From Candidatus Micrarchaeum sp. (GTDB lineage: Archaea > Micrarchaeota > Micrarchaeia > CABMEP01), in contig DYJP01000002.1 in assembly GCA_020723065.1 (NCBI GenBank), positions 7,464-71,463 on the forward strand: a DNA stretch of 64,000 bases, read 5' to 3'. The position numbers were made by a program, and so were the translations under genes. The notes under the pieces are model-generated. The model worked only from the letters and a program-made list of their open reading frames with translations. It did not search any database and was not told the origin of the DNA. The stretch's first letter is position 1. Each line of letters begins with the position of its first letter. Shown piece by piece: positions 21,946-59,804 of this stretch.

Positions 21946-22416
21946 TCAGAACTTTCCTTTTTTGACCAAAGAATAGGCTAATTTGAGCTGTTTCTTAGAC
22001 GATTCGTAGGTGAGAAGCTTCATTGAATCCTTAAACGACGCCCACCTGTAACCGTCGTGCTCTTTTATGTCATTATTCTGTATGGAGACCTTGCCGTAGT
22101 ATTCCACGAGGAAAACTTGAAACTCCATTCGAGTGTATCTGTACTTTTTAACATATTCTGGGGGTGTCCTGAACTTCATCTTTGACGAAATAGGAATTAT
22201 ACTCCCTATCATATGTTTTTCTGCGTTTATCTCTTCCTTGAGTTCACGCATGAGAGTGGAAACTGGACTTTCTCTTCCGATTCTTCCGCCTTTTAGAATC
22301 TCCCAGCCGATCCACCTTTTTACTCTGTGAAGAAGAAGGAATTCTGGCTGACCTTTTCTCATCCTGAAGACTATCGCACTCGCTCCGCGCCTAATTCTCT
22401 CTTTTTTAGTTGCCAT
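21946..22416 (-). CDS. NUDIX hydrolase
   Basis: Nudix box GGRIGRESPVSTLMRELKEEI (G-x5-E-x7-RE-U-x-EE). Confidence 0.75.
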   Translation of the reverse strand: MATKKERIRRGASAIVFRMRKGQPEFLLLHRVKRWIGWEILKGGRIGRESPVSTLMRELKEEINAEKHMIGSIIPISSKMKFRTPPEYVKKYRYTRMEFQVFLVEYYGKVSIQNNDIKEHDGYRWASFKDSMKLLTYESSKKQLKLAYSLVKKGKF

Positions 22417-22429
22417 CTAACCAACTTAA

Positions 22430-23419
22430 TCATTTTATTTTTGAAAAATCTATAATTCTATTCTTTTTCGCTTTTTCATCTCTGCAAAGGAGAACGATTC
22501 TTGAAGGCTTGTGCTCATCAGTATATATGTAACCTGTCTCTTTTGCCAATTTCTTTGCGAACTCAACGATTTCATCATGCAAAGGCATTCCTAAAGGACC
22601 GATTCTATTTCTTGAGAATCCCAAGGCCATATACGCCTTTACCTCCACATAATCTGGATTGCCCATCTTTATAAGTTCAGCATACTTTTCTGGATGGGCC
22701 ATATTACTGTCCTTGATAATGGTCATGCGTATAACTGTTCGTGTAAACTTGCCCGCCTCCTTAAGCAATTTAAGTGAAGCGAGATACCTTTCCCAGCCAT
22801 CGGGAGAATTCGGCCTTACAATCAAATTGAAGCTTTCCTTATCGTAAGAAGACATCGAAAGATAAAGTTGGGTTGGAAGTGTTTTATTATTTATCAGATT
22901 CTCTATTGCACTTGGCGATCCACCAGCAGTCACGATAAATGTACTCATTCCCCTCTTATGGAACGCTTTGAGAAGCTCCGGCATTTTGGGATAAACGATT
23001 GGTTCTCCGAGAACGCTCAATGCCACGTGCTTCGGATCCTGTGCTTCAATCCAGAGCTTCTTGTCCGCATGCGGGTGTCCTCCTAAGCCGGAAAGAAGCT
23101 TTCTCTGCGCCAAGATCATCTCTTCGATTATCTCTTCCGGATCATCCCATTTATCAATTTTAATTGAATCCATATCAACTTCGATCTCTCCTGGCTGCGC
23201 TCTCCAGCAGAAAACGCATTTGTTAAAGCAGAACGGAACGACCGTGCATTGGAGACATCTATTACTCTTTATACCGTAAAACTGGTTTTTGTAGCACCAA
23301 GAACCCTTAATTATCGAATCTTTGGTATATTGGCAAATCTTGACCAATGAATGTTGGTTCTTTCCAGCGAACCGGTACTTCTGTTTTTTCAAAACAGCTG
23401 CAAGCTTATCCGGAATCAT
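22430..23419 (-). CDS. taw1: Radical SAM enzyme, tRNA 4-demethylwyosine synthase (Taw1/TYW1-like)
   Basis: CFNKCVFCWR radical-SAM cluster motif, plus an upstream Cys-containing region (KICQYTKDS...GSWCYK) typical of Taw1. Confidence 0.65.
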   Translation of the reverse strand: MIPDKLAAVLKKQKYRFAGKNQHSLVKICQYTKDSIIKGSWCYKNQFYGIKSNRCLQCTVVPFCFNKCVFCWRAQPGEIEVDMDSIKIDKWDDPEEIIEEMILAQRKLLSGLGGHPHADKKLWIEAQDPKHVALSVLGEPIVYPKMPELLKAFHKRGMSTFIVTAGGSPSAIENLINNKTLPTQLYLSMSSYDKESFNLIVRPNSPDGWERYLASLKLLKEAGKFTRTVIRMTIIKDSNMAHPEKYAELIKMGNPDYVEVKAYMALGFSRNRIGPLGMPLHDEIVEFAKKLAKETGYIYTDEHKPSRIVLLCRDEKAKKNRIIDFSKIK

Positions 23420-23503
23420 AGCATCACAAAAAAGGATCTTTGATATCGACCTTAATATTAATACAAAAGGACATTATTTAAATTTAATCCGAGATATAAA
23501 ACC

Positions 23504-24655
23504 ATGCCTATAACCATTCTTTTGGAAAAGAACAAACTCAAGGTAAGAAACCAACAGGATTACGAAGCGCTAAGAAGGGCTTTCTACGGAGAGAAGCGCG
23601 GACCCGAAATAGAGCTCACTGTAGAGGAAGCCCTCTATCTGATGGAAGTTCGAAATGCTATTTGCCTAGATGGAGAGCGATCCGTCACATTCAGTGAACT
23701 GGTGCAAAAATTCAACAAACCGAAACTGTTCGCAGAATACATCACATTCAGGGACTGGAGAGAAAGGGGACTCATGGTAAGACCTTTCTCAGACTCGAAA
23801 GGAAACTACAACAAGAATCCGACAGTCAAGTATCCGTTCAAGAAAACAAAATTCAATAAGGTGAATGCCAGCGGATTGTTCTTCAAAGAAGATAAGATGA
23901 CGATCCTGGAAGATGAAGAGACAGGAAAAATCCTGTATCAAAGTCATTGGTTCGGCCAGTACGGATCCTACAAGGCGGAAGGAAGGGGAAGGTTCCTAAA
24001 ACTTGACAAGTTCGAGACGATGTTCCTTGTGAAAAACTGTGGAATGGAGCTCATGAACTGCACGGAAGCAGAGCTCGACGCCAACCTGAATGAGGATCCT
24101 GATTTTCTGTCGATGTATCAAGTTTATGAAGATTGGAGAAATGCTGGATTCATAGTAAAAACAGGATTCAAATTCGGAACGCACTTCAGAATATATTTCC
24201 CAGGCGCATTGCCTGGAAAGAGCAAGGATTGGACCCATTCAAAGCACGTCCTCCACATATTCCCAAGGGAGAAGAGAATGGTAATAGCTGAATGGGCGAG
24301 AGCGATCAGGGTGGCTCACGGAGTCAGGAAGACGTTCATACTCGCCATACCTGGAAAGAAAAAAAAGGAAAAGAATAAATCCATAGTCAGTTTCATATTA
24401 TACCATAGGAAAGGAAACGCCATAGAGACCCCGGACAAAGACGGACCTTCTTTCGCCATGGTTTCATTGAGCGAAGAGGAAATGATCGGAGGAAACGAGC
24501 TTGCAATAGCGATCGAAGAATCCAAGAACCACGGGCTAGATGTTGTCCTGGGTATAGTTGATAGAGAGACTTCTGTCACTTATTACAGGGTAAAAAGAAT
24601 CGACTTGCCGGAAAGCAAGTACGAATATTACGAAATAGAATGGATACAGCCATGA
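23504..24655 (+). CDS. endA: tRNA-splicing endonuclease EndA, three-unit architecture
   Basis: Central catalytic motif GFKFGTHFRIYFPG...WTHSKHVLHI (Tyr/His/Lys triad region). It is preceded by an N-terminal EndA-like domain and followed by a ~130-aa extra C-terminal unit. Confidence 0.75.
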   Translation: MPITILLEKNKLKVRNQQDYEALRRAFYGEKRGPEIELTVEEALYLMEVRNAICLDGERSVTFSELVQKFNKPKLFAEYITFRDWRERGLMVRPFSDSKGNYNKNPTVKYPFKKTKFNKVNASGLFFKEDKMTILEDEETGKILYQSHWFGQYGSYKAEGRGRFLKLDKFETMFLVKNCGMELMNCTEAELDANLNEDPDFLSMYQVYEDWRNAGFIVKTGFKFGTHFRIYFPGALPGKSKDWTHSKHVLHIFPREKRMVIAEWARAIRVAHGVRKTFILAIPGKKKKEKNKSIVSFILYHRKGNAIETPDKDGPSFAMVSLSEEEMIGGNELAIAIEESKNHGLDVVLGIVDRETSVTYYRVKRIDLPESKYEYYEIEWIQP

Positions 24656-24681: not shown

Positions 24682-25983
24682 ATGGATCTTGGAGACGGCA
24701 TCAGAAAGGCACTTACAAAAATAACTGGCAAGGCGCTTATCGATGAATCTGTAATAAAATCAATGCTTAAGGACATCCAAAGGGCGCTGATACTCTCCGA
24801 TGTCAACATCGAATTAGTCTACAAGATATCTAAAGAAATAGAAAAGAGGGCGCTTAATGAGAAGCCTCCGATCGGAAGGAGCATGAATGAGCACGTAAGC
24901 GCCATAGTATATGAAGAGCTTACCAAGATAATGGGTGAAGGAAGGAAAATAGAGCTCAAGAAGCAGACCATAATGGTGCTCGGCCTTTTCGGTTCCGGAA
25001 AGACAACTCAAATAGGAAAGATATCTAATTACCTCAAGAAAAGGGGAATGAGCGTCGGAGTGATAGCGGCGGACATGATGAGGCCGGCCGCATACGACCA
25101 GCTTGAACAACTTTCAAAGCAAGTAGGCTGCAATTTCTATGGAAAACGGAATGCAAACTCATCCGACGTGGTGAAGGAAGGACTGCAAAGGCTCAAAAAC
25201 GATGTCATAATTATAGACACCTCCGGAAGAGACGCTCTTGATGACGAGCTGACAACAGAACTGAAGAGCATAGAGCAGATTGCAAAGCCGGATGAAAAAA
25301 TACTGGTCATGTCTGCAGACATAGGGCAAATTGCAAAGCAACAGGCAGAGGAATTCAACAAATCCGTAGGCCTGACAGGAGTCATAATCACAAAAATGGA
25401 CGGAAGCGGAAAAGGAGGGGGAGCACTTACCGCCTGCTCTGTTGCGGGAATAAAGGTAGTATTCATAGGTGTCGGAGAGAAGCTTGACGACATAGAAGAA
25501 TTCAATCCGGGAAAATTCGTGGGAAGGCTCCTTGGGGTTCCTGACTTCGAGGCCCTGATCGAAAAAGTCAAGACTGCAATGCCGGAAGGGGCAAACGAGA
25601 TTCCCGAAGAATTCGATATTGATACTTTTTACAAGCAGCTCAAGGCTGCAAGAAACATGGGCCCTTTGAAAGGTCTCTTTGAGATGATGGGAATGGTAAA
25701 CGTTCCGAAAGATGTTGTCGAACAGGGAGAGCAGAAGATGGATCAATACGAAGCTATAATCAATTCGATGACTAAAGCGGAAAGGAAGAACCCGGATCTG
25801 GTAAGAAAACACCCAAGCAGGGTAACCCGAATTGCTAACGGTTCAGGAATAAGCCCTTCCACGGTCAAGGAATTCATAACGCAATTCGGGAAGATGAAGA
25901 AGATGTACGAGCAACTTCAGAAGAACAAAGGAATGCAAAAGAACCTGCAAAGAATGCTAAAAGGAAAAGGCTTTGGATTTTAA
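24682..25983 (+). CDS. srp54: Signal recognition particle protein SRP54
   Basis: N domain, G domain with GLFGSGKTT and DTSGR motifs, and a Met-rich M domain. Confidence 0.9.
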   Translation: MDLGDGIRKALTKITGKALIDESVIKSMLKDIQRALILSDVNIELVYKISKEIEKRALNEKPPIGRSMNEHVSAIVYEELTKIMGEGRKIELKKQTIMVLGLFGSGKTTQIGKISNYLKKRGMSVGVIAADMMRPAAYDQLEQLSKQVGCNFYGKRNANSSDVVKEGLQRLKNDVIIIDTSGRDALDDELTTELKSIEQIAKPDEKILVMSADIGQIAKQQAEEFNKSVGLTGVIITKMDGSGKGGGALTACSVAGIKVVFIGVGEKLDDIEEFNPGKFVGRLLGVPDFEALIEKVKTAMPEGANEIPEEFDIDTFYKQLKAARNMGPLKGLFEMMGMVNVPKDVVEQGEQKMDQYEAIINSMTKAERKNPDLVRKHPSRVTRIANGSGISPSTVKEFITQFGKMKKMYEQLQKNKGMQKNLQRMLKGKGFGF

Positions 25984-25990
25984 ATAATCA

Positions 25991-28627
25991 CTAGGATGCC
26001 TTTGAAGACCGGATCATTTTCATTATTTCTATGTAAACAAAACCTGTAGATGCAATAAGGATCACTGCTCCAAGCTCCAGTGCTGTTAAAGACGTGGTAT
26101 AGAACAAGGATTGGACTGGCTCGAAATATATTATAACCATCTGAAGGAGGAATGAGAACAAGGCCGCAAGAACCAAATACTTATTATTGAAAAGAACTCC
26201 AAACACTGGTCTTTCAAGCGACCTGCAGGAGAAAGATTGGAACATTTCAAAGAAAACAATTAAGCTGAACGATATCGTTTGTGCCTTAAGCAAGTCTCCC
26301 GTAACACTAAGAACATAAGCGAAGGAAACGAGAACAGCAACAGTCAATATAATCGGATAATGTATAACGTAAAGGTCAAGTTTGGAAATTATGTCTTCAT
26401 CTGGGGGCCTCGGCCGCCTATTCATAACATCTTTTGATATCGGATCAACTGCAAGCGAAAGAGCGGGCAGCCCGTCAGTAATAAGATTTATCCACAGAAT
26501 CTGAATTGCAATTAATGGAAGCGACAACCCGATCAGGGCTGCCAGAAATATTATGAAAACCTCCGCTATGTTTCCGGAAAGCAGGAATGCGATATTCTTC
26601 CTTATATTCTCGTATATTCCTCTTCCCTGCTCTATCGCCTTGACTATTGTGGCAAAATTGTCGTCGGATATGACAAGGTCTGCGACTTCTCTGGTGACAT
26701 CAGTTCCTGTTTGGCCCATAGCCACGCCCACGTCTGCCGTCTTTAGGGCAGGAGCGTCATTTATCCCGTCTCCAGTCATTGCAACTATCTCTCCCTTCTC
26801 CTTCAAAATGCGCGTTATCCTTACCTTGTGCTCCGGAGAGACTCTTGCAAATATCTTGACTCGTGAAATCCTTTTCTTAAGCTCTGAGTCACTAAGCTCG
26901 TCCAATTCCAAGCCAGTAAGGGCACTCCCGCCATCTATTATTCCAAGTTCTTTCCCTATTGCGAGCGCAGTCTCCTTATGGTCTCCGGTGATCATGATGA
27001 CGTCTACGCCTGCTTTCTTGCAAATGGAAATCGCATGCTTCACTTCAGGCCTCGGCGGATCTATCATCGCCTGAAGACCCAAAAACACGAATCCGTTCTC
27101 CTGTATCTTATTTGCAGAAGTACACTTCATTGCAAGTGCCAAAACCCTGAAGCTTGATCTTGCGTATTCTTTCTCCTTTTCAAGTATTTTTGACTTATCT
27201 TTAGAGTTTATCTTCTGGATTTTTCCTTCTTTTAAAATGAACTGGCATTTCTGAATTATCTTTTCTGCCGCACCCTTGGACCAGACAATCTTTTTATGTT
27301 TGTTAGAAACTGAAGCGTAAAGAACCGACATCATCTTTCGCTCGGAATCGAACTGAACCTCATCTAATCGCTTAAAATCCGACCGGTGATCTGGAATGCC
27401 TGCTTTTTTAGCTGAGACCAAAAGGGCCAATTCAGTAGGATCTCCAACCGGTTGGCCTGTTATGAAACTGTCATTACAATAAGAGCCAGCTTCCAAAGTC
27501 AATGAAAGATCCTTGTCTATTCTCTTTACTTCCTTGTTCTTGAACAGCACCTTTCCTTCTCCTTTGTAGCCTTCTCCAGTGAAAACGTATTCTTTTCCAT
27601 AATTCCAAACTTTCTTAACTGTCATTTCATTCACTGTAAGGGTTCCGGTCTTATCTGTGCAAATAGTAGTAACGCTGCCGAGCCCTTCTACTGCCGTAAG
27701 CTTTCTGACTATGGCATTGTGCTTTGCCATCTTGTTAACACCTAACGAAAGCGCAATAGTTATGGAAGCGAGAAGACCTTCCGGCACCGCCGCCACTGCA
27801 AGAGATATTGAAGTAAGCGCGATATCAATAAGCTTCATGCCATTAAGCAGACCAAGCAGAAAAACTACAGTACATATCGCAAGAAACACGATTCCGATGA
27901 ATTGACCGAACCTATCAAGCTTCTTCTGAAGCGGAGTGACGTCTTCTTCGGCCTGTATTGAAAGCGCAATCTTTCCGAATTCGGTACCCATTCCAGTGGA
28001 AACTACCACCGCTCCACAACGGCCATAAACTACGGATGTTCCCATGAAAAGCATATTCGCCTGGTTCTGTACCAACTGCTTTCCGTTTATGACTTCAGAA
28101 ATCTTCGAAACTGGATGCGACTCGCCAGTAAGGATTGATTCGTCAACTTTAAGATTTATTTGGGATATAACCCTGCAGTCTGCAGGAACCCTGTCACCAG
28201 TATTCAAAACTACGAAGTCGCCGGGAACAAGCTCTCTGGAAGAGATGGTCTTCAGCTCTCCATCTCGGATAACCTTGACAGTCGGAATTGTAAGCTTCTT
28301 TAAAGCTCGAATCGCCTCTTCTGCCTTCTTTGTTTGGATGTAACCTAGAAATGCATTGAGAAGAATTATTACAAGTATAAGGAGTGCATCCACGTATTCA
28401 TTGAATGCGAATGAAAGCAAAACTGCAATGATCAAAATCAATATGAGAAAACTCTTGAACTGATCGACTAATAAGTCAAAATCGGATTTCTGTTTCTTTT
28501 CCTGAATTTCATTATAGCCAAATTCCGCCAGTCGTTCCTTTGCTTCAAAAGAAGTAAGTCCGTTTGTAGATGTCTGAAGTGTTTCCATCACTTCCTTTGC
28601 AGACAGAATATGGTACGGTTCGTTCAT
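25991..28627 (-). CDS. P-type cation-transporting ATPase (P2/Ca2+-type)
   Basis: DKTGTLT phosphorylation motif, TGDGINDAPAL hinge motif, a cation ATPase N-terminal domain and 10 predicted TM segments. Confidence 0.9.
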   Translation of the reverse strand: MNEPYHILSAKEVMETLQTSTNGLTSFEAKERLAEFGYNEIQEKKQKSDFDLLVDQFKSFLILILIIAVLLSFAFNEYVDALLILVIILLNAFLGYIQTKKAEEAIRALKKLTIPTVKVIRDGELKTISSRELVPGDFVVLNTGDRVPADCRVISQINLKVDESILTGESHPVSKISEVINGKQLVQNQANMLFMGTSVVYGRCGAVVVSTGMGTEFGKIALSIQAEEDVTPLQKKLDRFGQFIGIVFLAICTVVFLLGLLNGMKLIDIALTSISLAVAAVPEGLLASITIALSLGVNKMAKHNAIVRKLTAVEGLGSVTTICTDKTGTLTVNEMTVKKVWNYGKEYVFTGEGYKGEGKVLFKNKEVKRIDKDLSLTLEAGSYCNDSFITGQPVGDPTELALLVSAKKAGIPDHRSDFKRLDEVQFDSERKMMSVLYASVSNKHKKIVWSKGAAEKIIQKCQFILKEGKIQKINSKDKSKILEKEKEYARSSFRVLALAMKCTSANKIQENGFVFLGLQAMIDPPRPEVKHAISICKKAGVDVIMITGDHKETALAIGKELGIIDGGSALTGLELDELSDSELKKRISRVKIFARVSPEHKVRITRILKEKGEIVAMTGDGINDAPALKTADVGVAMGQTGTDVTREVADLVISDDNFATIVKAIEQGRGIYENIRKNIAFLLSGNIAEVFIIFLAALIGLSLPLIAIQILWINLITDGLPALSLAVDPISKDVMNRRPRPPDEDIISKLDLYVIHYPIILTVAVLVSFAYVLSVTGDLLKAQTISFSLIVFFEMFQSFSCRSLERPVFGVLFNNKYLVLAALFSFLLQMVIIYFEPVQSLFYTTSLTALELGAVILIASTGFVYIEIMKMIRSSKAS

Positions 28628-33819: not shown

Positions 33820-33925
33820 GCAGGGGTGCCAGAGCCAGGTCAAACGGGTCAGATTCAGTATTGAAGACCAAGCTTAGGACCTGATGCGCGTAGGCGCTGC
33901 GTGGGTTCAAATCCCACCTCCTGCA
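33820..33925 (+). tRNA. tRNA-Leu (anticodon TAG), class II with long variable arm and a candidate 19-nt intron at non-canonical position 30/31
   Basis: Acceptor stem GCAGGGG/CUCCUGC with discriminator A. T-arm GUGGG-UUCAAAU-CCCAC. Variable-arm hairpin GCGC-GUAG-GCGC. Removing 33853-33871 restores a perfect anticodon arm UCAGG-CUUAGGA-CCUGA. The D-arm pairing could not be resolved by eye. Confidence 0.55.
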
Positions 33926-50819: not shown

Positions 50820-52037
50820 TCATCGTTTGGAGCTTTCCTTTCCTGCAGTTATTCTGAGAGTTCCGCCGACTTCCTTTATTGTGACATCTATATTCTTGGA
50901 ATTCTCAAAGCACTCCCTTATCTGGTCAAGAGAATAATTCCTCATTGCGGCAATGTTGGCAGATATCGCTTCATCTGTTATGTCTTTCGCTACTTTCGAT
51001 TCGAACTGCTGCTTGAATACCTTCATGTCGATCTCGAAATAAAGGAGCCTTAGAGGGGATTCCTTATCCTTCTCTTCTTTCCTTCCTACTTCCAACTTCT
51101 GGAATAGGGAGGATCGTATCTCTTTCTGTTTTATGAACGTGCTAACTCTTCTAAATTCTGCGTCAAGTTCGGATAATAGATTGTAAGCGGAATCATTTTC
51201 TGCTGCTAAAAGGAACGAAGAATCTCCAAGGTAAGATATGAATATCTTTTCCGGAGAATCCGCTATCTTGTCCTGTAGCATTTGAGAAACGAGCCTTACT
51301 ATTTTATTCTTTTCCTTTTCGGTATAAAGCTCTGCGTACTGATCTATTCCTTCTATTTCAAGTTTAATGAATTTACTGTTTTCCTCATTAAGATAAAGTG
51401 CAATATTCTTAACGAGCCTTTCGACATCTGGAAGATCGACAAGCGGATCGAATATGTTTCCGCTCTTCTGAAGAAATATATTCGCAAGTGCCCTGAGTTC
51501 CATCGGTTCGAATGGTTTCTTAATGTAGTAGTCAGCCCCGTATTGTATACCGTGGAATCGATTTACTGTAGCATCTGCTGCAGAAACAATAACTACGATT
51601 ATGTTTTTGGTATCTGGCGCTGATTTGATCTTTTTACAGACATCCAATCCATTTATGCCCGGAAGCATAAGGTCTAAAAATACAAGATCTGGCTTAAAGG
51701 TGTTTACTTTTTTCAACCCTTCTTCTCCATCATATGCAGAGTCGATTTCATACCCTTCGCCTAATGATAGTTTGATAAGGTTATTTATATCTTTGTCGTC
51801 TTCCACGATCAAAATTTTCTTCGGTTTTGTGAATTCAAGAACGTACCAAAAGTCCAACTTTCCTACTGCTCTTGATTCTATCTTGCCTTTTGTTTTAAGC
51901 CTTACTAGTGTGCCTTTAACTTCCTCTTCGGAATAACTGGAAAATTCCTTGATTATTTCCTTTGTTTCTAAAGCGATATCTTTAGCTTTTAAGAATGAAA
52001 GGAGCTCTTGTTCAATTTTTAGATCATCAATTTCCAT
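50820..52037 (-). CDS. Response regulator: N-terminal wHTH-like region, CheY-like receiver, and a degenerate GGDEF-like output domain
   Basis: Receiver KILIVEDDKDINNL...KPDLVFLDLMLPGINGL...KKPF. Output domain DPLVDLPDVERL (DxLTGLxNR-like) ... SYLGDSSF in place of GG(D/E)EF. The start is trimmed to MEIDDLK (ATG 52035-52037). Confidence 0.6.
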   Translation of the reverse strand: MEIDDLKIEQELLSFLKAKDIALETKEIIKEFSSYSEEEVKGTLVRLKTKGKIESRAVGKLDFWYVLEFTKPKKILIVEDDKDINNLIKLSLGEGYEIDSAYDGEEGLKKVNTFKPDLVFLDLMLPGINGLDVCKKIKSAPDTKNIIVVIVSAADATVNRFHGIQYGADYYIKKPFEPMELRALANIFLQKSGNIFDPLVDLPDVERLVKNIALYLNEENSKFIKLEIEGIDQYAELYTEKEKNKIVRLVSQMLQDKIADSPEKIFISYLGDSSFLLAAENDSAYNLLSELDAEFRRVSTFIKQKEIRSSLFQKLEVGRKEEKDKESPLRLLYFEIDMKVFKQQFESKVAKDITDEAISANIAAMRNYSLDQIRECFENSKNIDVTIKEVGGTLRITAGKESSKR

Positions 52038-52114
52038 AAACTCACTACGCAAGACAAGTATACAATAAAAGATTGATTGTAAAGAAATTAAAAGGTTAGT
52101 GTGAAAAATGATAT

Positions 52115-54061
52115 ATGGCGGATGCAGGGGATCAAAATATTGGCAAAATGCAACCAACTATATTAGAACTAGCTGAGCTGGAAAAGGAAAACTCAACAGC
52201 TCAGAAAATCGAGCCGAAAATAAATGAAAAAAATAATGTTAGAAGATATGAAGTGAGGTATAGGCCAGACTTCCAACAAAATGATTCTTTTCAATTACTA
52301 TTTAGACATATAGGTGAACCAGCGGTTCTAGTAGACAACAAAAAAAGGATAATGGATGTAAACCCGTCCTTTTCAAGAATGACTTCTTATCAACGAGAGG
52401 AAATTATTGGAAAAAAAATAAACAGCATATTAAGAAAAAACACTATTTTGACAAAAAACAACGGAACTAAGGAATTCGAGGCTAATGAGATTAAGATAGG
52501 TCTTAGCACATTGTATCTTTTCATAGATAAGAATGAAATAGATACTAAATTTAAGATATCTAACGAGCTTGAAGCACTAAAAACACACTTAGATGATTTT
52601 GTAATAAAGGTAAAAAAAGATGGAAAGATTATTTACATGAATCCAAATTTTAAGACCGTATTTTCAAATGCCTCTGAAGGCGAAAACTTAAAGAATTACC
52701 TTAAAATTAATAAATTTCATTCAAAACTGAAAATTGCGAGCGAAACTGGTCAACCTGAACTTTCTGAAGGAACAATGGAAATAAATGACAAAGGACAGAT
52801 AAGGAATTGTCCAATAAACGTGAAAATAATACCATCCAAAGAAGAATTAATAATTATAGTAAAAAATCAAATTGAAAAACTAGATCTTAACAAGCAAATA
52901 GAAGATGCAAAGCAAGAATACGAAGCCATAGTCAACAATGTCACCGATATTATTTGCATAATAGACAAAAAAGGCAAGTTTCAATTTGTAAACAAGCAGT
53001 TTGAACGGCAGCTTGGGTATAAGAAGGAGAATCTCCCCTTACTTCCCCAAATAATCTATCATGAAGACCTTCCAAAATTTCTTCAGACTCTTACTGAAAT
53101 AGAAAGAAACAATAGAGGTTTTCAAGAACTTGAAATAAGCCTTTATACCTCTAAACGAAAACTACTCAATTTCTCAGCAAGTGGAATATCTAAGATATCT
53201 GATGGAAACGACGTGAGATACAGTGTCACCTTAAGAGATATTACAGCAAAGAAAAAAAGTGAAAATGAAACTGCAAAAGAAAGGGAAAAATTGAAAGAAG
53301 AATACAAAAAGATGAAGGAAATTAATGAAATGAAAACCAATTTCGTAAGCATGGTATCACACGATCTTAAAACACCACTTACAAACATACAAGGATACGC
53401 TTCTCTCATGAGAAACAAAATATTGGGACCGAATAATCCGAAGCAGCAGGAAGCAACAGAAATAATAGACAAGGAATCTAAACGTCTCGCCAAACTGATC
53501 AACGACCTTTTAGATCTTTCAAAAATAGATGCGGGGGCTATGGTCATACAGAAGAAACCGTTTAAACTTAAAGATTTAGAAGACAAATGCTCCTTAAAAC
53601 ATCTCGCAGAAAAGAAAGGTTTGATACTTATATGGAACACTCCTGAATCGCTCGGCGAAGTTTATGGAGATCCAGAAAGAATAGCCCAAGTTCTCACCAA
53701 TCTTGTAAATAATGCGATCAAATTTACAGATCACGGATCCGTGACTGTCAATGCGTTCGAAAAAGGAAAAGACAATATACAAATTGATGTTATAGACACC
53801 GGACTGGGAATACCTAAAAAAGACCAGGAAATGATTTTTGAAAGATTCCAGCGAAGTAGTACTTCCTTGAAATTCAAAAAAGAAGGAAGTGGTCTCGGCC
53901 TTGCTATCGCAAGAGAGATAATGAAGCTTCATGACAGTGACATAATGGTCAAATCAGAAGTAGGTAAAGGAAGCACGTTTAGTATAATATTAAGTAAAGC
54001 ACCGAAGCAACAAAATGAAAGAGACAAGGTTAACGACTATCTCGAAAAGATGACCCATTAA
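52115..54061 (+). CDS. Cytoplasmic PAS-domain sensor histidine kinase
   Basis: Multiple PAS-like repeats. HisKA VSMVSHDLKTPLTNIQGYASLM. HATPase_c N-box LTNLVNNAIKFT and G-boxes DTGLGIP / GSGLGLAIA. No TM helices. Confidence 0.8.
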   Translation: MADAGDQNIGKMQPTILELAELEKENSTAQKIEPKINEKNNVRRYEVRYRPDFQQNDSFQLLFRHIGEPAVLVDNKKRIMDVNPSFSRMTSYQREEIIGKKINSILRKNTILTKNNGTKEFEANEIKIGLSTLYLFIDKNEIDTKFKISNELEALKTHLDDFVIKVKKDGKIIYMNPNFKTVFSNASEGENLKNYLKINKFHSKLKIASETGQPELSEGTMEINDKGQIRNCPINVKIIPSKEELIIIVKNQIEKLDLNKQIEDAKQEYEAIVNNVTDIICIIDKKGKFQFVNKQFERQLGYKKENLPLLPQIIYHEDLPKFLQTLTEIERNNRGFQELEISLYTSKRKLLNFSASGISKISDGNDVRYSVTLRDITAKKKSENETAKEREKLKEEYKKMKEINEMKTNFVSMVSHDLKTPLTNIQGYASLMRNKILGPNNPKQQEATEIIDKESKRLAKLINDLLDLSKIDAGAMVIQKKPFKLKDLEDKCSLKHLAEKKGLILIWNTPESLGEVYGDPERIAQVLTNLVNNAIKFTDHGSVTVNAFEKGKDNIQIDVIDTGLGIPKKDQEMIFERFQRSSTSLKFKKEGSGLGLAIAREIMKLHDSDIMVKSEVGKGSTFSIILSKAPKQQNERDKVNDYLEKMTH

Positions 54062-54065
54062 TAGA

Positions 54066-56117
54066 TTATTTCTTTTTTGCTTCTAGTTTCTTTATTTTCT
54101 TTACTGTTCTTGGTTTTTCTGCTGCCTTTTCTGATTTTCCAACATTCTTGTTAGAAGAGCAATATGGATTAAGGCATTTTTGATACCTTTGTTTTCCTTT
54201 TATCACCCATATCTTTGGAGAAGAGCAAATGTCGCAAGACCCGGCATATGTGAAAAGATATGTTGGGGGTAAAGAGTACGTTATTTTACAATTTGGATAG
54301 TTGCTGCATCCCAGGAACTTGCTTCCTTTGTAATTTATAATTTTTAGATAGCCGCCGCACTTGCAAGGGGCGAATTTTTCTGATTCTTCCAATTGACTTT
54401 TTAGAAAAGTTCCTATTTCTTTTTCGTGATTAAAAATATCGTTCATAATTGATGAAATAATGTTTTTTGCATCTTCGATTACTTTGTCCTTACTTACTTT
54501 TTTATTCTGTATCTTTTCCATCTCTTCTTCAAGCTGCCTTGTAAGAGTAGGATCAAGTATTTTGGGTGAATATTGCTTGAATGTCTGGTATATCGCTTTG
54601 CCTAATGGAGTGATTGTAAGCTGCTTTCCGTTTACATAACCTCTCTTATATAATGTATCTAAAACAAGGGCTCTTGTTGTTTTTGTACCTATATTCTCCT
54701 TTTCCATAAGCTGCAAAATAGATGCAGGTGTATATCTTATAGGTGGAGTTGTTGTTTTTTCGGTTATATTTATCTTGGTAATGTTTACATCCTGACCATC
54801 CGTAAATTTGAGTTTATGGTCTTTTTCATTCAAGAACGGATAGAATTCATACCAACCTCTTTTGACAATCTCTGGAATTGAAGCATTATATGTTTCTCTT
54901 GCATTGAGAGTTAGCTTATTGTCTTTTATTTCCGCGGGATCTGCAAAACATGCAAGAAATCTGTAAACAATTAAATTGTAAAGCCTTTCTTCATCCTGAT
55001 TCAATTTATCCTTGTTTCCCGTAGGATATATTGCAGGATGTACGTCTTCTTTTTTGCCTTCTCTCGGTCTGAATTTATTTTCATTTATTAATTGATTAGC
55101 CAAGTTTGTAAATGTGGAATTCTGAGAAAGCTGCTTGATTATGTTTCTTACATTTATTTGTGGCGGAAGTTTTTGGGATGCTGTTCTAGGATAGCTGATC
55201 AATGCTTTTTCATATAAGGATTGAGCAAGCTCTTGCGTCTTAACTGGAATATAACCATATATTCTATAAGCTTCAGTTTGCAAGGAGGTGAAATCAAAAG
55301 GGGGAAGTGTATAGACTTTTCTAATTGAAGAGACAATGGAAATCTTTCCTTTTTTATCTGTATTATTCTTTGCTGTTTCTGCTTCATCTTTTTTCTTAAA
55401 TGGATTTTTAGTATGTAAAAATGAAATTTCTTCCACTTCAGCATTAACTTGCCAATAAAGTTCTGGTTTAAAGTTTGCTATTTCTTCTTCTTTTTTAAAA
55501 AGAAAATAGAGCATTGGACCCTGTACTCTCCCTATTGACAAAACTCTGAATCTACCTGCATTCCTTATTGCGTTCATCACTGCCCTACTTAAATTTATTC
55601 CATAAAACCAATCGATAATGTGCCTTACTTCACCTGCATATGCGTTGTCAATATCAAAATCAATAAGATTATGATATGATTCTTGAAGTTCAGAAGGAGT
55701 GACTGTGGAAAATTTCATTCTTTTTGCTTTTTTTATGTCACTGAAGTTTCGAATAATATTGTATCCAATCAAGCTTCCTTCTATATCGAAATCTGTCGCA
55801 TTAATAACTAAGTCTGCGTTTTTTACTAGATTTTGAAGATTATCTAAATAATCTTTAATATACCATGCTGTCTTGTTAATTTGATATGAGGGAACCCATT
55901 CAAGATTAAAAATCGGTAATACGTTTGTTTTCTCCTTTAATGTAAATAAATGACCTACTGCTGGAGAAATAAAAATTGTTTTATTGTTGTTTTTTAACTC
56001 GTAATAAGACACTTTTTTGTAAACCTTTCTAGTAAGGGAAATAAATTCTGGTTTTAATGCGTATGCTATCTTCTGTGCAACAGACGGTTTCTCTGCAATA
56101 ATTACGATATTTTCCAT
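54066..56117 (-). CDS. topA: DNA topoisomerase, type IA (Topo I/III-like) with C-terminal zinc ribbons
   Basis: Toprim N-terminus IVIIAEKPSVA...DFDIEGS, a catalytic Tyr region, and C-terminal C4 zinc fingers (CKCGGY...CSNYPNC, CDICSS...C). Confidence 0.85.
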   Translation of the reverse strand: MENIVIIAEKPSVAQKIAYALKPEFISLTRKVYKKVSYYELKNNNKTIFISPAVGHLFTLKEKTNVLPIFNLEWVPSYQINKTAWYIKDYLDNLQNLVKNADLVINATDFDIEGSLIGYNIIRNFSDIKKAKRMKFSTVTPSELQESYHNLIDFDIDNAYAGEVRHIIDWFYGINLSRAVMNAIRNAGRFRVLSIGRVQGPMLYFLFKKEEEIANFKPELYWQVNAEVEEISFLHTKNPFKKKDEAETAKNNTDKKGKISIVSSIRKVYTLPPFDFTSLQTEAYRIYGYIPVKTQELAQSLYEKALISYPRTASQKLPPQINVRNIIKQLSQNSTFTNLANQLINENKFRPREGKKEDVHPAIYPTGNKDKLNQDEERLYNLIVYRFLACFADPAEIKDNKLTLNARETYNASIPEIVKRGWYEFYPFLNEKDHKLKFTDGQDVNITKINITEKTTTPPIRYTPASILQLMEKENIGTKTTRALVLDTLYKRGYVNGKQLTITPLGKAIYQTFKQYSPKILDPTLTRQLEEEMEKIQNKKVSKDKVIEDAKNIISSIMNDIFNHEKEIGTFLKSQLEESEKFAPCKCGGYLKIINYKGSKFLGCSNYPNCKITYSLPPTYLFTYAGSCDICSSPKIWVIKGKQRYQKCLNPYCSSNKNVGKSEKAAEKPRTVKKIKKLEAKKK

Positions 56118-56681
56118 TCAATCACAAAATAAATTTAAAAATTTCTATTAAGATAATAAAACAGAAATAGAAATATAAAAGTATTTTGAATTTTACAGAA
56201 AAACACAAGACGGACCCCTTAATTCCAGTAATAATGGAATTTTCTGAATATTTAATTCTAATAAACTAGAAATAAACTGTTTTAAATTAAGCTATTTTAT
56301 TTTTGTAATAAAATTAATATCTTCTATATTTATTTTATAATAATCTATCCAATCAAGATAATCTTTAAAAAATAGATCTATTTCATTTTGATATTCGTTT
56401 TCGATTAGGAATATTTGGTTTTTTAAAAATAATTTAATTTTTATGTATTTGTTTAATTTTTTAAAATTATAATAAAATCTTCTTTTAATTGTATTTTTAA
56501 CTTTTTTAGATGATGATTTTATTTGAAAAAGATAAAGAATAGTCATATTGTAACTTTAGTTACATAAATTTATATATTTATTTATAATATTGGAACTAAC
56601 CCCTCCCCCTATCAACTAAAACTGTATAAATTTAAAAGTAATCAGAAATTTACTAAAAAAAGGTAAAAAAAATAAAAAAGA

Positions 56682-57233
56682 CTAAACTACTCTTAAAACA
56701 CTGTCCTTTTTAACTCCATTTAAAATATATGAATAAGTCCTGTAATGAACATATGCATTAATTTTTACTGGTGCATTTCCAGGTGGAGTTGTACTATTTG
56801 ACCAAATCGGAACAATTATTGTATAGCTATCTCCTTTATTTAAATAACCCACTCTTATCTCTTTTGTTCTATGGATACCTGTTTGGTCAAGACCTAAATT
56901 GTTTCCAACTTCAATAACTAAAGAAGTTAAAACAGTTTCATTTGTCATGTTCTTAATCTTAATTTCTAAATCACATCTATCTATTTTGTGTGATGAAATT
57001 CTAACTGGATTAAACGAAGTTTTTATATCAAATGGAACTTTTTTTGCAATAGGACTTACATCCTTCTTTCCAAATAAATCTAAAATACCCATAAACCCAC
57101 TCTTCTTATTTTCTCTGACGAGATATTCATATTTTATTTTATAGCATTCCTTTATATTAGTTTCTTTTACTAACTTGTTTTCTTCGTTATCGAATAGGTT
57201 TTTAAATATTATACTTAATATCTCATTATACAC
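56682..57233 (-). CDS. Hypothetical protein (183 aa) inside a low-GC island
   Basis: Intact ORF with no recognisable motif. Its GC is markedly lower than flanking genes. Confidence 0.35.
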   Translation of the reverse strand: MYNEILSIIFKNLFDNEENKLVKETNIKECYKIKYEYLVRENKKSGFMGILDLFGKKDVSPIAKKVPFDIKTSFNPVRISSHKIDRCDLEIKIKNMTNETVLTSLVIEVGNNLGLDQTGIHRTKEIRVGYLNKGDSYTIIVPIWSNSTTPPGNAPVKINAYVHYRTYSYILNGVKKDSVLRVV

Positions 57234-57239
57234 AATGAG

Positions 57240-57467
57240 GTGTTTTTAATGGGAAAGAAAGTAGGATCTGAAAAAATTAAGAGAGAAGATGGTTATCTGT
57301 ACTACGTTGGAAAAGACGGTTTTGTATGGAGAGCACCAATGAAGGCAAACAAGAAAGGAAGAAAAGGAAAAGTTGGTTCTGAAAAAATTTCCAAGAAGGA
57401 TGGTTTCATGTACTACGTCGGAAAAGACGGATTCGTATATGAAGCAAAGATGAAGAACGTAAGATAA
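57240..57467 (+). CDS. Small basic protein with two tandem ~35-aa repeats (GSEKI-K-DG--YYVGKDGFV---MK)
   Basis: KKVGSEKIKREDGYLYYVGKDGFVWRAPMK / GKVGSEKISKKDGFMYYVGKDGFVYEAKMK. A GAGG-like RBS lies upstream. Confidence 0.4.
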   Translation: MFLMGKKVGSEKIKREDGYLYYVGKDGFVWRAPMKANKKGRKGKVGSEKISKKDGFMYYVGKDGFVYEAKMKNVR

Positions 57468-57555
57468 CTTAACTTAATTTCTTTTTTATTTTTTCTTTAT
57501 TTTTCTCATTTTTGATTTTTATATATTTAATTAATATTGGTCTGTATCTAATTAG

Positions 57556-57628
57556 TGGGGTCGCTGAGATTTGAACTCAGATCAACAGCTCCCAAAGCTG
57601 TCAGCATACCAGGTTAGCCCACGACCCC
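57556..57628 (-). tRNA. tRNA-Pro (anticodon TGG)
   Basis: Acceptor GGGGUCG/CGACCCC with discriminator A. Anticodon arm ACAGC-UUUGGGA-GCUGU. T-arm CUGAG-UUCAAAU-CUCAG. CCA is not encoded. Confidence 0.8.
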
Positions 57629-57706
57629 ATCAAATAAAAAATCAGAACGTACGCTTACACTATATTACATTCTACATTTTAAAATATTACTCTACGACTA
57701 TATATT

Positions 57707-58051
57707 ATGAAGCAAGTAATTGTTTTTCGTGAAGATCTCAAACTTGGAAAAGGTAAACTTGCAGCTCATGCAGCTCATGCAGCCATAGTCGGATATGAAT
57801 TAATTAGCAAAAAAGACAAAAAATTACTGTTTAAATGGTTAAATGAAGGTCAGAAAAAAATAGTAGTAAAAGTCAAAACAGAAAAAGATTTGTTTACTCT
57901 TTATGAATCTATGAAAGAAAAGATTCCATGTCAAATAATAAGTGATGCAGGACTCACTCAAATCGCCCCAGGTACCGTAACATGCATGGTAATCGGGCCA
58001 TGGTATGAAAAAGAGATAGACCCTTATATTTCAGAATTAAAGCTCCTTTAA
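57707..58051 (+). CDS. pth2: Peptidyl-tRNA hydrolase, archaeal/eukaryal PTH2 type
   Basis: GKLAAHAAHAA and DAGLTQIAPGTVTCMVIGP motifs of PTH2. Confidence 0.85.
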   Translation: MKQVIVFREDLKLGKGKLAAHAAHAAIVGYELISKKDKKLLFKWLNEGQKKIVVKVKTEKDLFTLYESMKEKIPCQIISDAGLTQIAPGTVTCMVIGPWYEKEIDPYISELKLL

Positions 58052-58410
58052 ACCAGTCTCTTTGATTCAGTGGTCATTTCTTCTTTTTTAGCCTGCGTTT
58101 CCAAAACATTTTCTTCATATATATTAGCAAAGATTTCATTTATTTTAATCGCAATCTTCGCCCCTTTTTCAGTCAAAGCAATGATTCTGTTTTTTCCTTC
58201 TTTTGTCGTTATAATAATCCCAATTTTTTCGAATTCTTTAACCTTTTTTATGACATAAGGAAAACTCAAGCCAGTTTCTTTGCTTAACTTACTTAGTGTC
58301 CATTTGTTTTCTTGAAGTAGAACAGTGATCATTTTTGCGATTTTTTTATGCATTATAAGCTCTCCAATATCTATTTCCATTGATTTTTGCTCCACTTTTT
58401 GCTTCTCCAT
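58048..58410 (-). CDS. Winged-helix transcriptional regulator
   Basis: HTH segment WTLSKLSKETGLSFPYVIKKVKEFEKIGII followed by a wing; 120 aa. Confidence 0.5.
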   Translation of the reverse strand: MEKQKVEQKSMEIDIGELIMHKKIAKMITVLLQENKWTLSKLSKETGLSFPYVIKKVKEFEKIGIIITTKEGKNRIIALTEKGAKIAIKINEIFANIYEENVLETQAKKEEMTTESKRLV

Positions 58411-58510
58411 AATTTAATCTAGTCAAGTTATTTTTTAACTTTTTTCCTTTGAACAATATTTAGTAATGTTTTTAAATATATTATTATAATAAGTTAATAG
58501 AGGCGATAAT

Positions 58511-58834
58511 ATGTCAATTCGTTTAAGCAAATTATATGGAATGGATATATTTTCCGATGGCGGAAGATACATGGGTAAAGTTTACGATATTATAGTCGAT
58601 GTAGAGAAAGGAGAAGTCGTAAGGTTGACCCTTGAAAGTATACATGCAGCATCCAGAGAAGAAGCACAGAGAATCATAAAGGAAAAGACTGTTCTTTACA
58701 AGAATGTTAGATCATTAGAAGACGTGATCGTTGTTTCCAAAGCTGTAGGCGCTCAAGTACAATACAGTTACGCACCATCGTCTACATCTACAAGAGAAGA
58801 CGAAAGCACATCAAATCTTTCATTCCTTAAGTAA
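58511..58834 (+). CDS. PRC-barrel domain protein
   Basis: LYGMDIFSDGGRYMGKVYDIIVDVEKGEVVRLTL matches the PRC-barrel pattern (L.G..V....G..LG.V.D...D...G.I..L). Confidence 0.55.
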   Translation: MSIRLSKLYGMDIFSDGGRYMGKVYDIIVDVEKGEVVRLTLESIHAASREEAQRIIKEKTVLYKNVRSLEDVIVVSKAVGAQVQYSYAPSSTSTREDESTSNLSFLK

Positions 58835-58925
58835 TTCTGTTTGTTTTTTTCTCTTTTTTTAAATTTTAAAATGTTAGTTTCAGTTTTAAAGAAACATTTT
58901 AAAATACACGAGATAAATTATTTTT

Positions 58926-59522: not shown

Positions 59523-59610
59523 TCCTTTCGACGCTAGGAAGGTATTTATTTCTTTTTGTAGTATATTATTTACTTCTTATCTTTCGCGTAAGCTTTAGAT
59601 AAGATTGCTA

Positions 59611-59721
59611 GCTCCAATCGTCTAGCCCGGTCAAGGACGTAGCCCTTTCAGAAACTTTTGAAAAGTTTCATCAAAAGTCTAAAGAAAGGCTAAAACTCGG
59701 GTTCAAATCCCGATTGGAGCA
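59611..59721 (+). tRNA. tRNA-Glu (anticodon TTC) with a 36-nt canonical-position intron
   Basis: Acceptor GCUCCAA/UUGGAGC with discriminator A. D-arm GUC-UAGCCCGGUCAAG-GAC. Anticodon stem UAGCC/GGCUA enclosing the loop CUUUCA plus intron 59651-59686, which contains a GAAACUUUU/AAAAGUUUC hairpin. T-arm UCGGG-UUCAAAU-CCCGA. Confidence 0.7.
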
Positions 59722-59804
59722 CTCTATTTTTATTATAACTAGGTTAGCTTAAGCTAAAGACTTGAATAAAAGAAAAAATAGAAACAAAAGAAAAACCGAT
59801 CAGC

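What the first reader, a model, noticed from the sequence alone, without database searches (positions are those of the whole stretch)
23504..24655. Three-unit tRNA splicing endonuclease (383 aa) in a genome with a non-canonically placed tRNA intron
The catalytic unit with the Tyr/His/Lys region (FRIYFPG...WTHSKHVLHI) is central, not C-terminal. It is preceded by an N-terminal EndA-like domain and followed by a ~130-aa extra unit lacking catalytic residues. This differs from the alpha4 (~180 aa) and alpha'2 (~300-350 aa, catalytic unit last) forms. It fits the fused epsilon2-type architecture described in some small-genome archaea, which has relaxed BHB specificity. It is consistent with the tRNA-Leu intron at position 30/31 in this same window.
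Basis: partly seen in the sequence, partly recalled or inferred. Interest (0 to 1): 0.55.

Follow-up and report, generated by a model that had tools for sequence, protein, structure and literature searches.

The report
Three-unit (ε2) tRNA splicing endonuclease gene
This gene encodes an ordinary member of the already characterised three-unit (ε2) archaeal tRNA-intron-cutting enzyme family of Micrarchaeota, and the same window carries a tRNA-Leu gene with an oddly placed intron of the kind this enzyme type is known to remove.

Summary
The ORF at 23504..24655 (+, 383 aa) is real. It is an orthologue of the ε2-type tRNA splicing endonuclease (EndA) of Candidatus Micrarchaeum acidiphilum ARMAN-2. 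It aligns end to end with the crystallised enzyme (PDB 4fz2/9w2k, E=1.4e-122, 49% identity). An AlphaFold model (pLDDT 89.8) superposes on those structures at TM 0.91-0.93, against about 0.5 for α'2 enzymes.

Every residue shown experimentally to matter in ARMAN-2 is present: triad Y231/H245/K276, bulge-binding R269/W380, specificity-loop Y156-K157, and dimer salt-bridge partners K223/R229 and D353/E355. All are invariant in 31 family members.

The companion claim also holds. tRNA-Leu(UAG) at 33820..33925 has a 19-nt intron exactly between positions 30 and 31. An intron-less syntenic orthologue in the closest relative confirms the placement. Its splice motif is relaxed (outer helix degenerate). 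A tRNA-Glu(UUC) carries a canonical 37/38 intron.

The enzyme type has been known since 2011, an identical protein is already in public databases, and more than 120 full-length relatives exist. It is a new member of a known kind and of low interest.

The parts
23504..24655 (+). EndA gene: ε protomer of an ε2-type tRNA splicing endonuclease (383 aa plus stop)
   Evidence: ORF. Pfam PF02778 and PF01974. Full-length hit to 4fz2_A/9w2k, E=1.4e-122. Structure match at TM 0.91-0.93.
23504..23782 (+). αN unit (aa 1-93), the N-terminal EndA-like subdomain; structural
   Evidence: Maps to ARMAN-2 residues 2-97 (PMC3488258) with 40% identity. Pfam tRNA_int_endo_N covers 7-66.
23783..23866 (+). Linker 1 (aa 94-121)
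   Evidence: Maps to ARMAN-2 98-125 at only 14% identity, with the same length. The model is mostly coil here, with one short strand at 107-109.
23867..24349 (+). α unit (aa 122-282), the catalytic unit: Y231, H245, K276, R269, and pocket residues K223/R229
   Evidence: Maps to ARMAN-2 126-288 at 54% identity, and all named residues are conserved. They are invariant in 31 homologues.
23963..23986 (+). ARMAN-specific loop (ASL) equivalent, aa 154-161 GSYKAEGR, with Y156-K157
   Evidence: Aligns to ARMAN-2 G158-H165 GTYKVSEH, with K157 matching K161 and Y156 matching Y160. Y156 and K157 are invariant. The role of K161 and Y160 is taken from PMC3488258 and PMC12397907.
24350..24391 (+). Linker 2 (aa 283-296), Lys-rich
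   Evidence: Maps to ARMAN-2 289-300.
24392..24652 (+). βC unit (aa 297-383): structural unit with L10-loop D353/E355 and C-terminal strand carrying W380
   Evidence: Maps to ARMAN-2 301-387 at 60% identity. There are weak hits to the β-subunit and Sen15 models. D353, E355 and W380 are invariant.
23475..23484 (+). A/T-rich TATA-like element (TTATTTAAAT) 20-29 nt upstream of the ATG. It is a possible archaeal promoter giving a leaderless or short-leader mRNA (inferred only).
   Evidence: Read directly from the sequence. It lies in the 84-bp divergent intergenic region shared with the Taw1-like gene. Not tested.
33820..33925 (+). tRNA-Leu(UAG) gene, class II, interrupted at position 30/31; a likely substrate
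   Evidence: Rfam tRNA hit, 31.4 bits, with an insertion. Of the placements that keep anticodon UAG, only excision after position 30 gives a 5-bp anticodon stem; its loop is CUUAGGA with G37. The other two 5-bp placements give anticodon CAG with U37. Alignment with the intron-less orthologue places the gap after position 30.
33853..33871 (+). 19-nt intron AUUCAGUAUUGAAGACCAA with a relaxed BHB (HBh'-like) motif
   Evidence: The MFE fold has the 3-nt bulge A-G|A, the central 4-bp helix GGUC/GACC and the inner helix UUCA/UGAA. The outer helix is degenerate: only G27-C54 pairs adjacent to the motif, and A25-U56 and C22-G59 are isolated.
59611..59721 (+). tRNA-Glu(UUC) gene with a canonical 37/38 intron; a second likely substrate
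   Evidence: Rfam tRNA hit, 49.6 bits. The mature sequence folds with the anticodon loop CUUUCAA.
59651..59686 (+). 36-nt intron at 37/38 with an hBHBh'-type motif: central helix CUUU/AAAG, bulges CA|G and AA|A
   Evidence: The explicit BHB register is base-pair valid at -10.4 kcal/mol, against -14.6 kcal/mol for the MFE in a slipped register.

Best explanation
The gene encodes the ε protomer of a homodimeric ε2-type archaeal tRNA splicing endonuclease (EndA, also called VSEN) of a Micrarchaeota archaeon. One polypeptide supplies three units: αN (structural), α (catalytic) and βC (structural). Together they take the place of the two subunits or repeats that make up one half of the other archaeal EndA types. 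Two protomers are expected to dimerise, with the acidic L10 loop of βC (D353, E355) inserting into the basic pocket of the partner's α unit (K223, R229). This gives two active sites spaced to cut the two bulges of a bulge-helix-bulge motif. Y231, H245 and K276 catalyse cleavage between the second and third bulge nucleotides. R269 and W380 sandwich a bulged base. The inserted loop 154-161 (Y156, K157) holds the phosphate next to the bulge, and in ARMAN-2 this is what allows cleavage of relaxed motifs at non-canonical positions. Likely substrates in this window are pre-tRNA-Leu(UAG) (19-nt intron at 30/31, relaxed motif) and pre-tRNA-Glu(UUC) (36-nt intron at 37/38). Shown here: homology, architecture, residue conservation, predicted fold, and intron positions and motifs. 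Inferred from the ARMAN-2 experiments: dimerisation, catalysis and broad specificity.
For: The sequence matches 4fz2_A/9w2k at E=1.4e-122 over query residues 8-383. It is 49% identical and collinear with ARMAN-2 EndA, with unit boundaries mapping one to one, and K161, K228, R234, Y236, H251, R275, K282, D357, E359 and W384 are all conserved. These residues are invariant in 31 diverse homologues and in a relative only 42% identical. The AF2 model has pLDDT 89.8 and pTM 0.84. Foldseek gives TM 0.91 to 4fz2_A and 0.93 to 9w2k_B over the full length, against 0.49-0.55 for α'2 enzymes and 0.35-0.37 for single α subunits. There is no other EndA-like unit in the 64-kb window. Two of the four tRNA genes in the window carry introns, one of them non-canonical with a relaxed motif. 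The roles of the residues come from mutagenesis and crystal structures in PMC3239211, PMC3488258 and PMC12397907.
Against: There is no direct evidence of activity, dimerisation or substrate range for this protein. K241 of ARMAN-2 is Leu here, but K241A had no effect in ARMAN-2. Linker 1 is only 14% identical. Only 64 kb of the genome was seen, so another EndA gene elsewhere cannot be excluded. The strength of the Leu outer helix depends on which pre-tRNA conformer forms, so the 'relaxed' classification rests on thermodynamic prediction.
Confidence: 0.93

Rival explanations
1. It is a standard α'2 homodimeric EndA (two tandem α-like repeats) that has picked up an unrelated C-terminal domain.
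For: Pfam reports only an N-terminal and a catalytic EndA domain above threshold, with nothing significant in the last 100 residues. α'2 structures are found as weaker hits.
Against: The C-terminal 87 aa are 60% identical to the ARMAN-2 βC unit and give weak hits to the β-subunit and Sen15 models. The full-length model fits ε2 structures at TM 0.91-0.93 but α'2 structures only at 0.49-0.55 with rmsd 6-7 Å. In α'2 enzymes the catalytic repeat is the last one; here it is central.
Confidence: 0.01
2. It is an ε-like protein that is not the functional splicing enzyme: a decaying or neofunctionalised paralogue. Another EndA elsewhere in the genome removes the introns.
For: Only 64 kb of the genome could be inspected. 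No activity data exist for this protein.
Against: All catalytic, RNA-binding and dimerisation residues are intact and are invariant across the family. The ORF is full length with no frameshift. More than 120 full-length (94-100% coverage) relatives of 374-456 aa indicate purifying selection. No EndA paralogue is present in the window.
Confidence: 0.03
3. The enzyme is a genuine ε2 EndA, but the interrupted tRNA-Leu gene is a pseudogene or is matured differently, so the link between enzyme type and the 30/31 intron is coincidental.
For: The tRNA-Leu Rfam score is low at 31.4 bits, just above the 29-bit gathering score. The D stem has non-standard pairs. The closest relative has no intron at this site.
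Against: Removing exactly 19 nt restores a perfect 5-bp anticodon stem, the loop CUUAGGA with G37, and an 87-nt mature tRNA that aligns colinearly with the orthologue at 85% mean column identity over the full alignment, intron gap included. Two anticodon-stem pairs covary between the orthologues. The cut sites fall at the second/third nucleotide of a 3-nt bulge and 2 nt after a 4-bp helix, which is the geometry EndA requires. The low Rfam score is the expected result of the insertion.
Confidence: 0.05

Closest known systems
ε2-type tRNA splicing endonuclease of Candidatus Micrarchaeum acidiphilum ARMAN-2 (PDB 4FZ2, 9W2K; Fujishima 2011 PMC3239211, Hirata 2012 PMC3488258, Miyata 2025 PMC12397907)
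   Same: It has the same αN-linker-α-linker-βC order and nearly the same length (383 vs 390 aa, the ARMAN-2 length given in PMC6379350). It is 49% identical. The triad, R/W bulge clamp, ASL Tyr-Lys, and L10 loop and pocket residues are the same, and the predicted fold matches at TM 0.91-0.93. The genome context also contains both canonical and non-canonical tRNA introns.
   Different: It comes from a different Micrarchaeota lineage (closest MAG orthologue 72% identical). Linker 1 is essentially unrelated in sequence (14% identity). The His-containing loop is one residue shorter, with K241 replaced by Leu. The ASL sequence is GSYKAEGR rather than GTYKVSEH. No biochemical data exist for it.
α'2-type homodimeric EndA (Archaeoglobus fulgidus, PDB 1RLV/2GJW; Thermoplasma acidophilum 2OHC)
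   Same: It is a single polypeptide forming a homodimer, with an N-terminal non-catalytic EndA-like part and one catalytic unit per chain. The catalytic chemistry and the L10-pocket logic are the same.
   Different: α'2 enzymes have two units with the catalytic one last. They lack the ASL and the βC unit and require strict BHB motifs. Structural match is only TM about 0.5.
(αβ)2-type heterotetrameric EndA of Crenarchaeota and Nanoarchaeota (Aeropyrum pernix 3P1Z/3AJV, N. equitans 3IEY)
   Same: It has a catalytic α plus a structural β module, a Trp at the end of α used for bulge binding, and broad specificity conferred by an inserted loop carrying a key Lys (CSL vs ASL). It is associated with non-canonical introns.
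   Different: α and β are separate polypeptides in those enzymes. The CSL has no sequence similarity to the ASL, which PMC3488258 interprets as convergent. There is no αN unit.

Membership tests
ε2-type archaeal tRNA splicing endonuclease | Single polypeptide of about 380-395 aa with three units αN-α-βC joined by two linkers | tested here: met
   The alignment to ARMAN-2 is collinear, with all five segments mapping: 1-93, 94-121, 122-282, 283-296 and 297-383. The AF2 model fits 4fz2_A at TM 0.91 and 9w2k_B at TM 0.93 over the full length.
ε2-type archaeal tRNA splicing endonuclease | Catalytic triad Tyr/His/Lys located in the central α unit (ARMAN-2 Y236, H251, K282) | tested here: met
   Y231, H245 and K276 are present. 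They are invariant in 31 homologues and in L007.
ε2-type archaeal tRNA splicing endonuclease | ARMAN-specific loop (ASL) insertion with conserved Tyr-Lys (Y160, K161) next to the active site | tested here: met
   The loop 154-161 GSYKAEGR aligns to G158-H165 without a gap. Y156 and K157 are invariant. In the model the region is mostly coil with lower pLDDT (mean 74 for the block of residues 151-160), as expected for a surface loop.
ε2-type archaeal tRNA splicing endonuclease | Bulge-base clamp formed by Arg in α and Trp at the extreme C-terminus of βC (R275, W384) | tested here: met
   R269 and W380 are present and invariant.
ε2-type archaeal tRNA splicing endonuclease | Homodimer formed by the L10 acidic loop of βC (D357, E359) inserting into a basic pocket of α (K228, R234) | tested here: inconclusive
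   The four residues are conserved as D353, E355, K223 and R229. The oligomeric state itself cannot be determined with these tools, because only single-chain prediction is available.
ε2-type archaeal tRNA splicing endonuclease | Cleaves both strict and relaxed BHB motifs (broad specificity) | not testable with these tools
   Support is indirect only. A relaxed-motif intron at 30/31 and a canonical intron at 37/38 lie in the same window, and no other EndA unit is present in the 64 kb.
α'2-type EndA | Two tandem α-like repeats with the catalytic repeat C-terminal; no third unit | tested here: not met
   The catalytic domain is at 201-285 of 383 residues and is followed by a βC unit. TM is only 0.49-0.55 to 2gjw, 1r11, 1rlv and 5x89.
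(αβ)2-type EndA | Separate catalytic α and structural β polypeptides | tested here: not met
   The α and β-like parts are fused in one ORF. No separate EndA-like ORF is present in the window.
α4-type EndA | Single α unit of about 180 aa forming a homotetramer | tested here: not met
   The protein is 383 aa with three units. 1a79_A covers only the α unit, with TM normalised to the query of 0.36.

The most novel reading that the evidence does not exclude
The 30/31 intron of tRNA-Leu(UAG) is a recent, lineage-specific gain: the syntenic orthologue in the closest sequenced relative lacks it. It may have arisen by partial local duplication of the anticodon arm, since the intron reads UCAG...GACC like the arm. 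That would be a snapshot of how broad-specificity ε2 enzymes let new non-canonical introns become fixed. The presence/absence polymorphism is shown here. The direction (gain vs loss) and the duplication origin are not.
Probability: 0.1. Interest if true: 0.35.

Novelty: new member of a known kind. Interest (0 to 1): 0.15.

Why it matters
It matters little beyond correct annotation. The gene should be labelled an ε2-type (three-unit, broad-specificity) tRNA splicing endonuclease rather than a generic 'tRNA-intron lyase'. tRNA finders run on this genome need intron-aware, non-canonical-position settings, because ARAGORN in its default mode missed two of the four tRNA genes. The data modestly reinforce two known points. 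The ε2 architecture and its specificity loop are conserved across many Micrarchaeota, not only in ARMAN-1 and ARMAN-2. The enzyme type also co-occurs with non-canonical tRNA introns that come and go between close relatives.

Tried and rejected
(1) ARAGORN in its default mode found only two tRNAs and neither intron-containing gene. Rfam covariance search was needed.

(2) I tested alternative placements of the Leu intron. Excision after position 39 or 40 also gives 5 stem pairs, but yields anticodon CAG with U37 and no helix flanking the cut sites. I rejected these because the orthologue alignment puts the gap after position 30 and the BHB geometry fits only 30/31.

(3) I tested whether the intron is a diverged duplicate of the anticodon arm. 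95 of 5000 shuffles reach the local score against the arm, but 520 of 5000 against the whole tRNA. This is not significant, so I kept it only as a speculative reading.

(4) I looked for a second EndA unit or subunit in the window with a family HMM over all six-frame segments. Nothing scored better than E=1.8.

(5) The exact-match contig look-up for the identical database protein P0001 returned nothing, so I could not name the source record. The cluster look-up gave no names either.

(6) The permissive Rfam scan for further disrupted tRNAs or sRNAs added only a chance-level SNORD15 hit inside the ORF, E=0.42 and 24 bits against a 75-bit threshold.

(7) Related loci other than L001 held no tRNA within reach, so conservation of the intron could be tested in one relative only.

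Full report
**Observation.** The window has an ATG-initiated ORF at 23504..24655 on the + strand, encoding 383 aa, exactly as reported. Pfam finds the EndA N-terminal domain at residues 7-66 (E=1.1e-10) and the catalytic domain at 201-285 (E=5.5e-27). Only sub-threshold hints (Sen15, E=0.12) appear in the last 100 residues. NCBIfam gives partial matches to several EndA equivalogs, all below their full-length cut-offs except the domain-level TIGR00324, plus a weak β-subunit hit at 314-367. So the catalytic domain is central and something follows it.

**Identification.** Among sequences of solved structures, the protein matches 4fz2_A/9w2k end to end: query 8-383 against chain 10-387, E=1.4e-122, 412 bits. 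The next best hit, the fused Methanopyrus enzyme 5x89, is at E=1.1e-22, and α'2 enzymes are at about 1e-18 covering only the catalytic part. 4FZ2 is the crystal structure of the ε2-type EndA of Candidatus Micrarchaeum acidiphilum ARMAN-2, and 9W2K is its 2025 RNA complex.

The structure paper defines the ε protomer as follows:
- Units: αN (2-97), linker 1 (98-125), α (126-288), linker 2 (289-300), βC (301-387).
- Catalytic triad: Y236/H251/K282, all inactive as alanine mutants.
- Bulge-recognition residues: R275 and W384.
- ARMAN-specific loop: G158-H165. Its K161 is essential, and the loop confers relaxed-motif cleavage when grafted into the A. fulgidus enzyme.
- Dimerising salt bridges: K228-D357 and R234-E359.

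The 2025 paper adds that Y160 and K161 are strictly conserved.

**Mapping.** A global alignment gives 49% identity, collinear, with only four short gaps (1, 1, 1 and 2 residues).

| Segment | Window residues | Identity to ARMAN-2 |
|---|---|---|
| αN | 1-93 | 40% |
| linker 1 | 94-121 | 14% |
| α | 122-282 | 54% |
| linker 2 | 283-296 | 42% |
| βC | 297-383 | 60% |

The functional residues map as K161→K157, K228→K223, R234→R229, Y236→Y231, H251→H245, R275→R269, K282→K276, D357→D353, E359→E355 and W384→W380. The only change among tested residues is K241→L236, and K241A had no phenotype in ARMAN-2. In a 31-sequence alignment of family members 52-73% identical to the query, all of these residues and Y156 are invariant. 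They are also kept in the most distant genomic relative retrieved, which is 42% identical.

**Structure.** An AlphaFold2 model built from that alignment has mean pLDDT 89.8 and pTM 0.84. The lower-confidence blocks fall on the ASL and on the loop that contains the catalytic His. Foldseek against the PDB gives:
- 4fz2_A: TM 0.91, rmsd 2.6 Å, 389 columns.
- 9w2k_B: TM 0.93, rmsd 2.0 Å.
- α'2 enzymes (2gjw, 1r11, 1rlv): TM 0.49-0.52, rmsd about 6 Å.
- Single α subunits: TM 0.35-0.37, normalised to the query.

**Context.** The neighbouring genes are housekeeping genes:
- a NUDIX hydrolase (21946..22416, -);
- a radical-SAM wyosine-formation enzyme of Taw1/TYW1 type (22430..23419, -), divergent from EndA across 84 bp;
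- SRP54 (24682..25983, +);
- a P-type cation ATPase (25991..28627, -).

An A/T-rich TATA-like element lies 20-29 nt upstream of the ATG. That it is a promoter giving a leaderless mRNA is inference only. A family HMM run over all six-frame segments finds no other EndA-like unit in the 64 kb.

The window is archaeal, with a partial archaeal 23S rRNA at 61267..64000. An identical 383-aa protein is already in NCBI and Logan (P0001). The closest named relatives are all Candidatus Micrarchaeota/Micrarchaeia MAGs. At least 120 clusters of near-full-length relatives exist (mostly 374-456 aa, 51-73% identical, 94-100% coverage; one 341-aa entry covers 89%).

**Substrates in the window.** ARAGORN found two uninterrupted tRNAs. 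Rfam added two with insertions.

*tRNA-Leu, 33820..33925.* This is a class II tRNA.
- Among all 19-nt excisions, removal after position 30 is the only one that keeps anticodon UAG and restores a 5-bp anticodon stem. The loop is C32-U33-UAG-G37-A38.
- Removal after position 39 or 40 also restores 5 pairs, but gives anticodon CAG with U37.
- The closest relative (L001, EndA 72% identical) has a syntenic tRNA-Leu(UAG) about 8.7 kb downstream of its EndA gene, and it has no intron.
- MAFFT places a single 19-nt gap exactly after position 30. Two anticodon-stem pairs covary between the orthologues: C28-G42→A-U and A29-U41→G-C.
- The intron is therefore window 33853..33871.

In the MFE fold of the pre-tRNA (-41.9 kcal/mol, against -30.4 when the mature anticodon stem is forced), the 5' cut lies between the second and third nucleotide of a 3-nt bulge (A-G|A). 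That bulge is flanked by a 4-bp helix GGUC/GACC and an inner helix UUCA/UGAA. The 3' cut lies two nucleotides after the GACC strand (A-A|G). The outer helix that would close the second bulge is degenerate: only G27-C54 pairs adjacent to the motif, and A25-U56 and C22-G59 are isolated. This is a relaxed, HBh'-like motif, the class that α4 and α'2 enzymes do not cut but ε2 and (αβ)2 enzymes do (PMC3239211).

*tRNA-Glu(UUC), 59611..59721.* It has a 36-nt intron (59651..59686) at the canonical 37/38 position. The hBHBh' register is valid, with central helix CUUU/AAAG and bulges CA|G and AA|A. Its energy is -10.4 kcal/mol, against -14.6 for a slipped MFE register.

Two of the four tRNA genes seen are thus interrupted. 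This is in line with the 56% reported for ARMAN-2, but the sample is far too small to generalise.

**Mechanism.** By homology with the characterised enzyme, two ε protomers dimerise through the βC L10 loop (D353/E355) and the α pocket (K223/R229). Each α unit cuts one bulge using Y231/H245/K276. R269 and W380 clamp a bulged base. Y156-K157 of the inserted loop fix the adjacent phosphate, which permits cleavage when one bulge or outer helix is missing. Architecture, residues and fold are shown here. Dimerisation, catalysis and specificity are inferred.

**Novelty and score.** The ε2 type was described in 2011, crystallised in 2012 and solved with RNA in 2025. This protein is a clear orthologue with no distinguishing feature beyond a divergent linker 1, and its exact sequence is already public. 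It is a new member of a known kind. The corrections are the size of the C-terminal unit (87 aa plus a 14-aa linker), the position of the catalytic Lys (K276, downstream of the quoted motif), and the fact that the C-terminal unit contributes W380 and the dimerisation loop. Interest is low (0.15). The only mildly interesting by-product is the presence/absence polymorphism of the 30/31 intron between close relatives.

Noticed in passing
window 59611..59721 (+), intron 59651..59686: tRNA-Glu(UUC) has a 36-nt intron at the canonical 37/38 position. ARAGORN in its default mode misses it, as it misses the interrupted tRNA-Leu. Two of the four tRNA genes in the window are interrupted.
   Followed up: yes
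L001 19843..19929 (+) vs window 33820..33925: The syntenic tRNA-Leu(UAG) of the closest relative (Micrarchaeota MAG SKW71, EndA 72% identical) has no intron. The 30/31 intron has therefore been gained or lost recently between related lineages. Two anticodon-stem pairs covary between the two genes.
   Followed up: partly
window 33853..33871: The 19-nt Leu intron (AUUCAGUAUUGAAGACCAA) resembles the anticodon arm it interrupts: UCAG..UU.A.GACC vs UCAGGCUUAGGACC. This hints at an origin by local duplication. The similarity is not statistically robust: 95 of 5000 shuffles reach it against the arm, and 520 of 5000 against the whole tRNA.
   Followed up: partly
window 22430..23419 (-): A radical-SAM wyosine-formation enzyme (Taw1/TYW1-like; Pfam Radical_SAM plus Wyosine_form) is transcribed divergently from EndA across an 84-bp spacer. 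Two tRNA-maturation genes therefore share one intergenic region.
   Followed up: no
window 52000..60000: G+C drops to 0.27-0.34 over this stretch, against about 0.40 for most of the window. The stretch holds a PAS histidine kinase (52115..54061), a type IA topoisomerase (54066..56117, -), a 183-aa ORF with no Pfam match (56682..57233, -), tRNA-Pro, and thymidylate kinase. A response-regulator protein (50820..52157, -) lies at its edge. Whether this is an island or just local composition was not examined.
   Followed up: no
window 61267..64000 (-): This is a partial archaeal 23S rRNA gene, with its 5' part cut off by the window end. It shows local deletions and an insertion relative to the Rfam model. 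No 5S rRNA gene was detected in the window. An FAD-dependent geranylgeranyl-reductase-like gene (59805..61019, -) lies between the 23S gene and tRNA-Glu.
   Followed up: no
window 33829..33847 (D arm of tRNA-Leu): The D stem of tRNA-Leu(UAG) has non-standard pairs, marked by Rfam. By eye, position 12:23 is A·C here and C·A in the L001 orthologue. Fujishima 2011 reports a comparable oddity in ARMAN-2: tRNA-Pro D arms with a single Watson-Crick pair.
   Followed up: no
window 23881..23919 (+): The permissive Rfam scan gave a weak SNORD15 (C/D box) match inside the EndA ORF: 24 bits against a 75-bit threshold, E=0.42. I judge it a chance match.
   Followed up: partly
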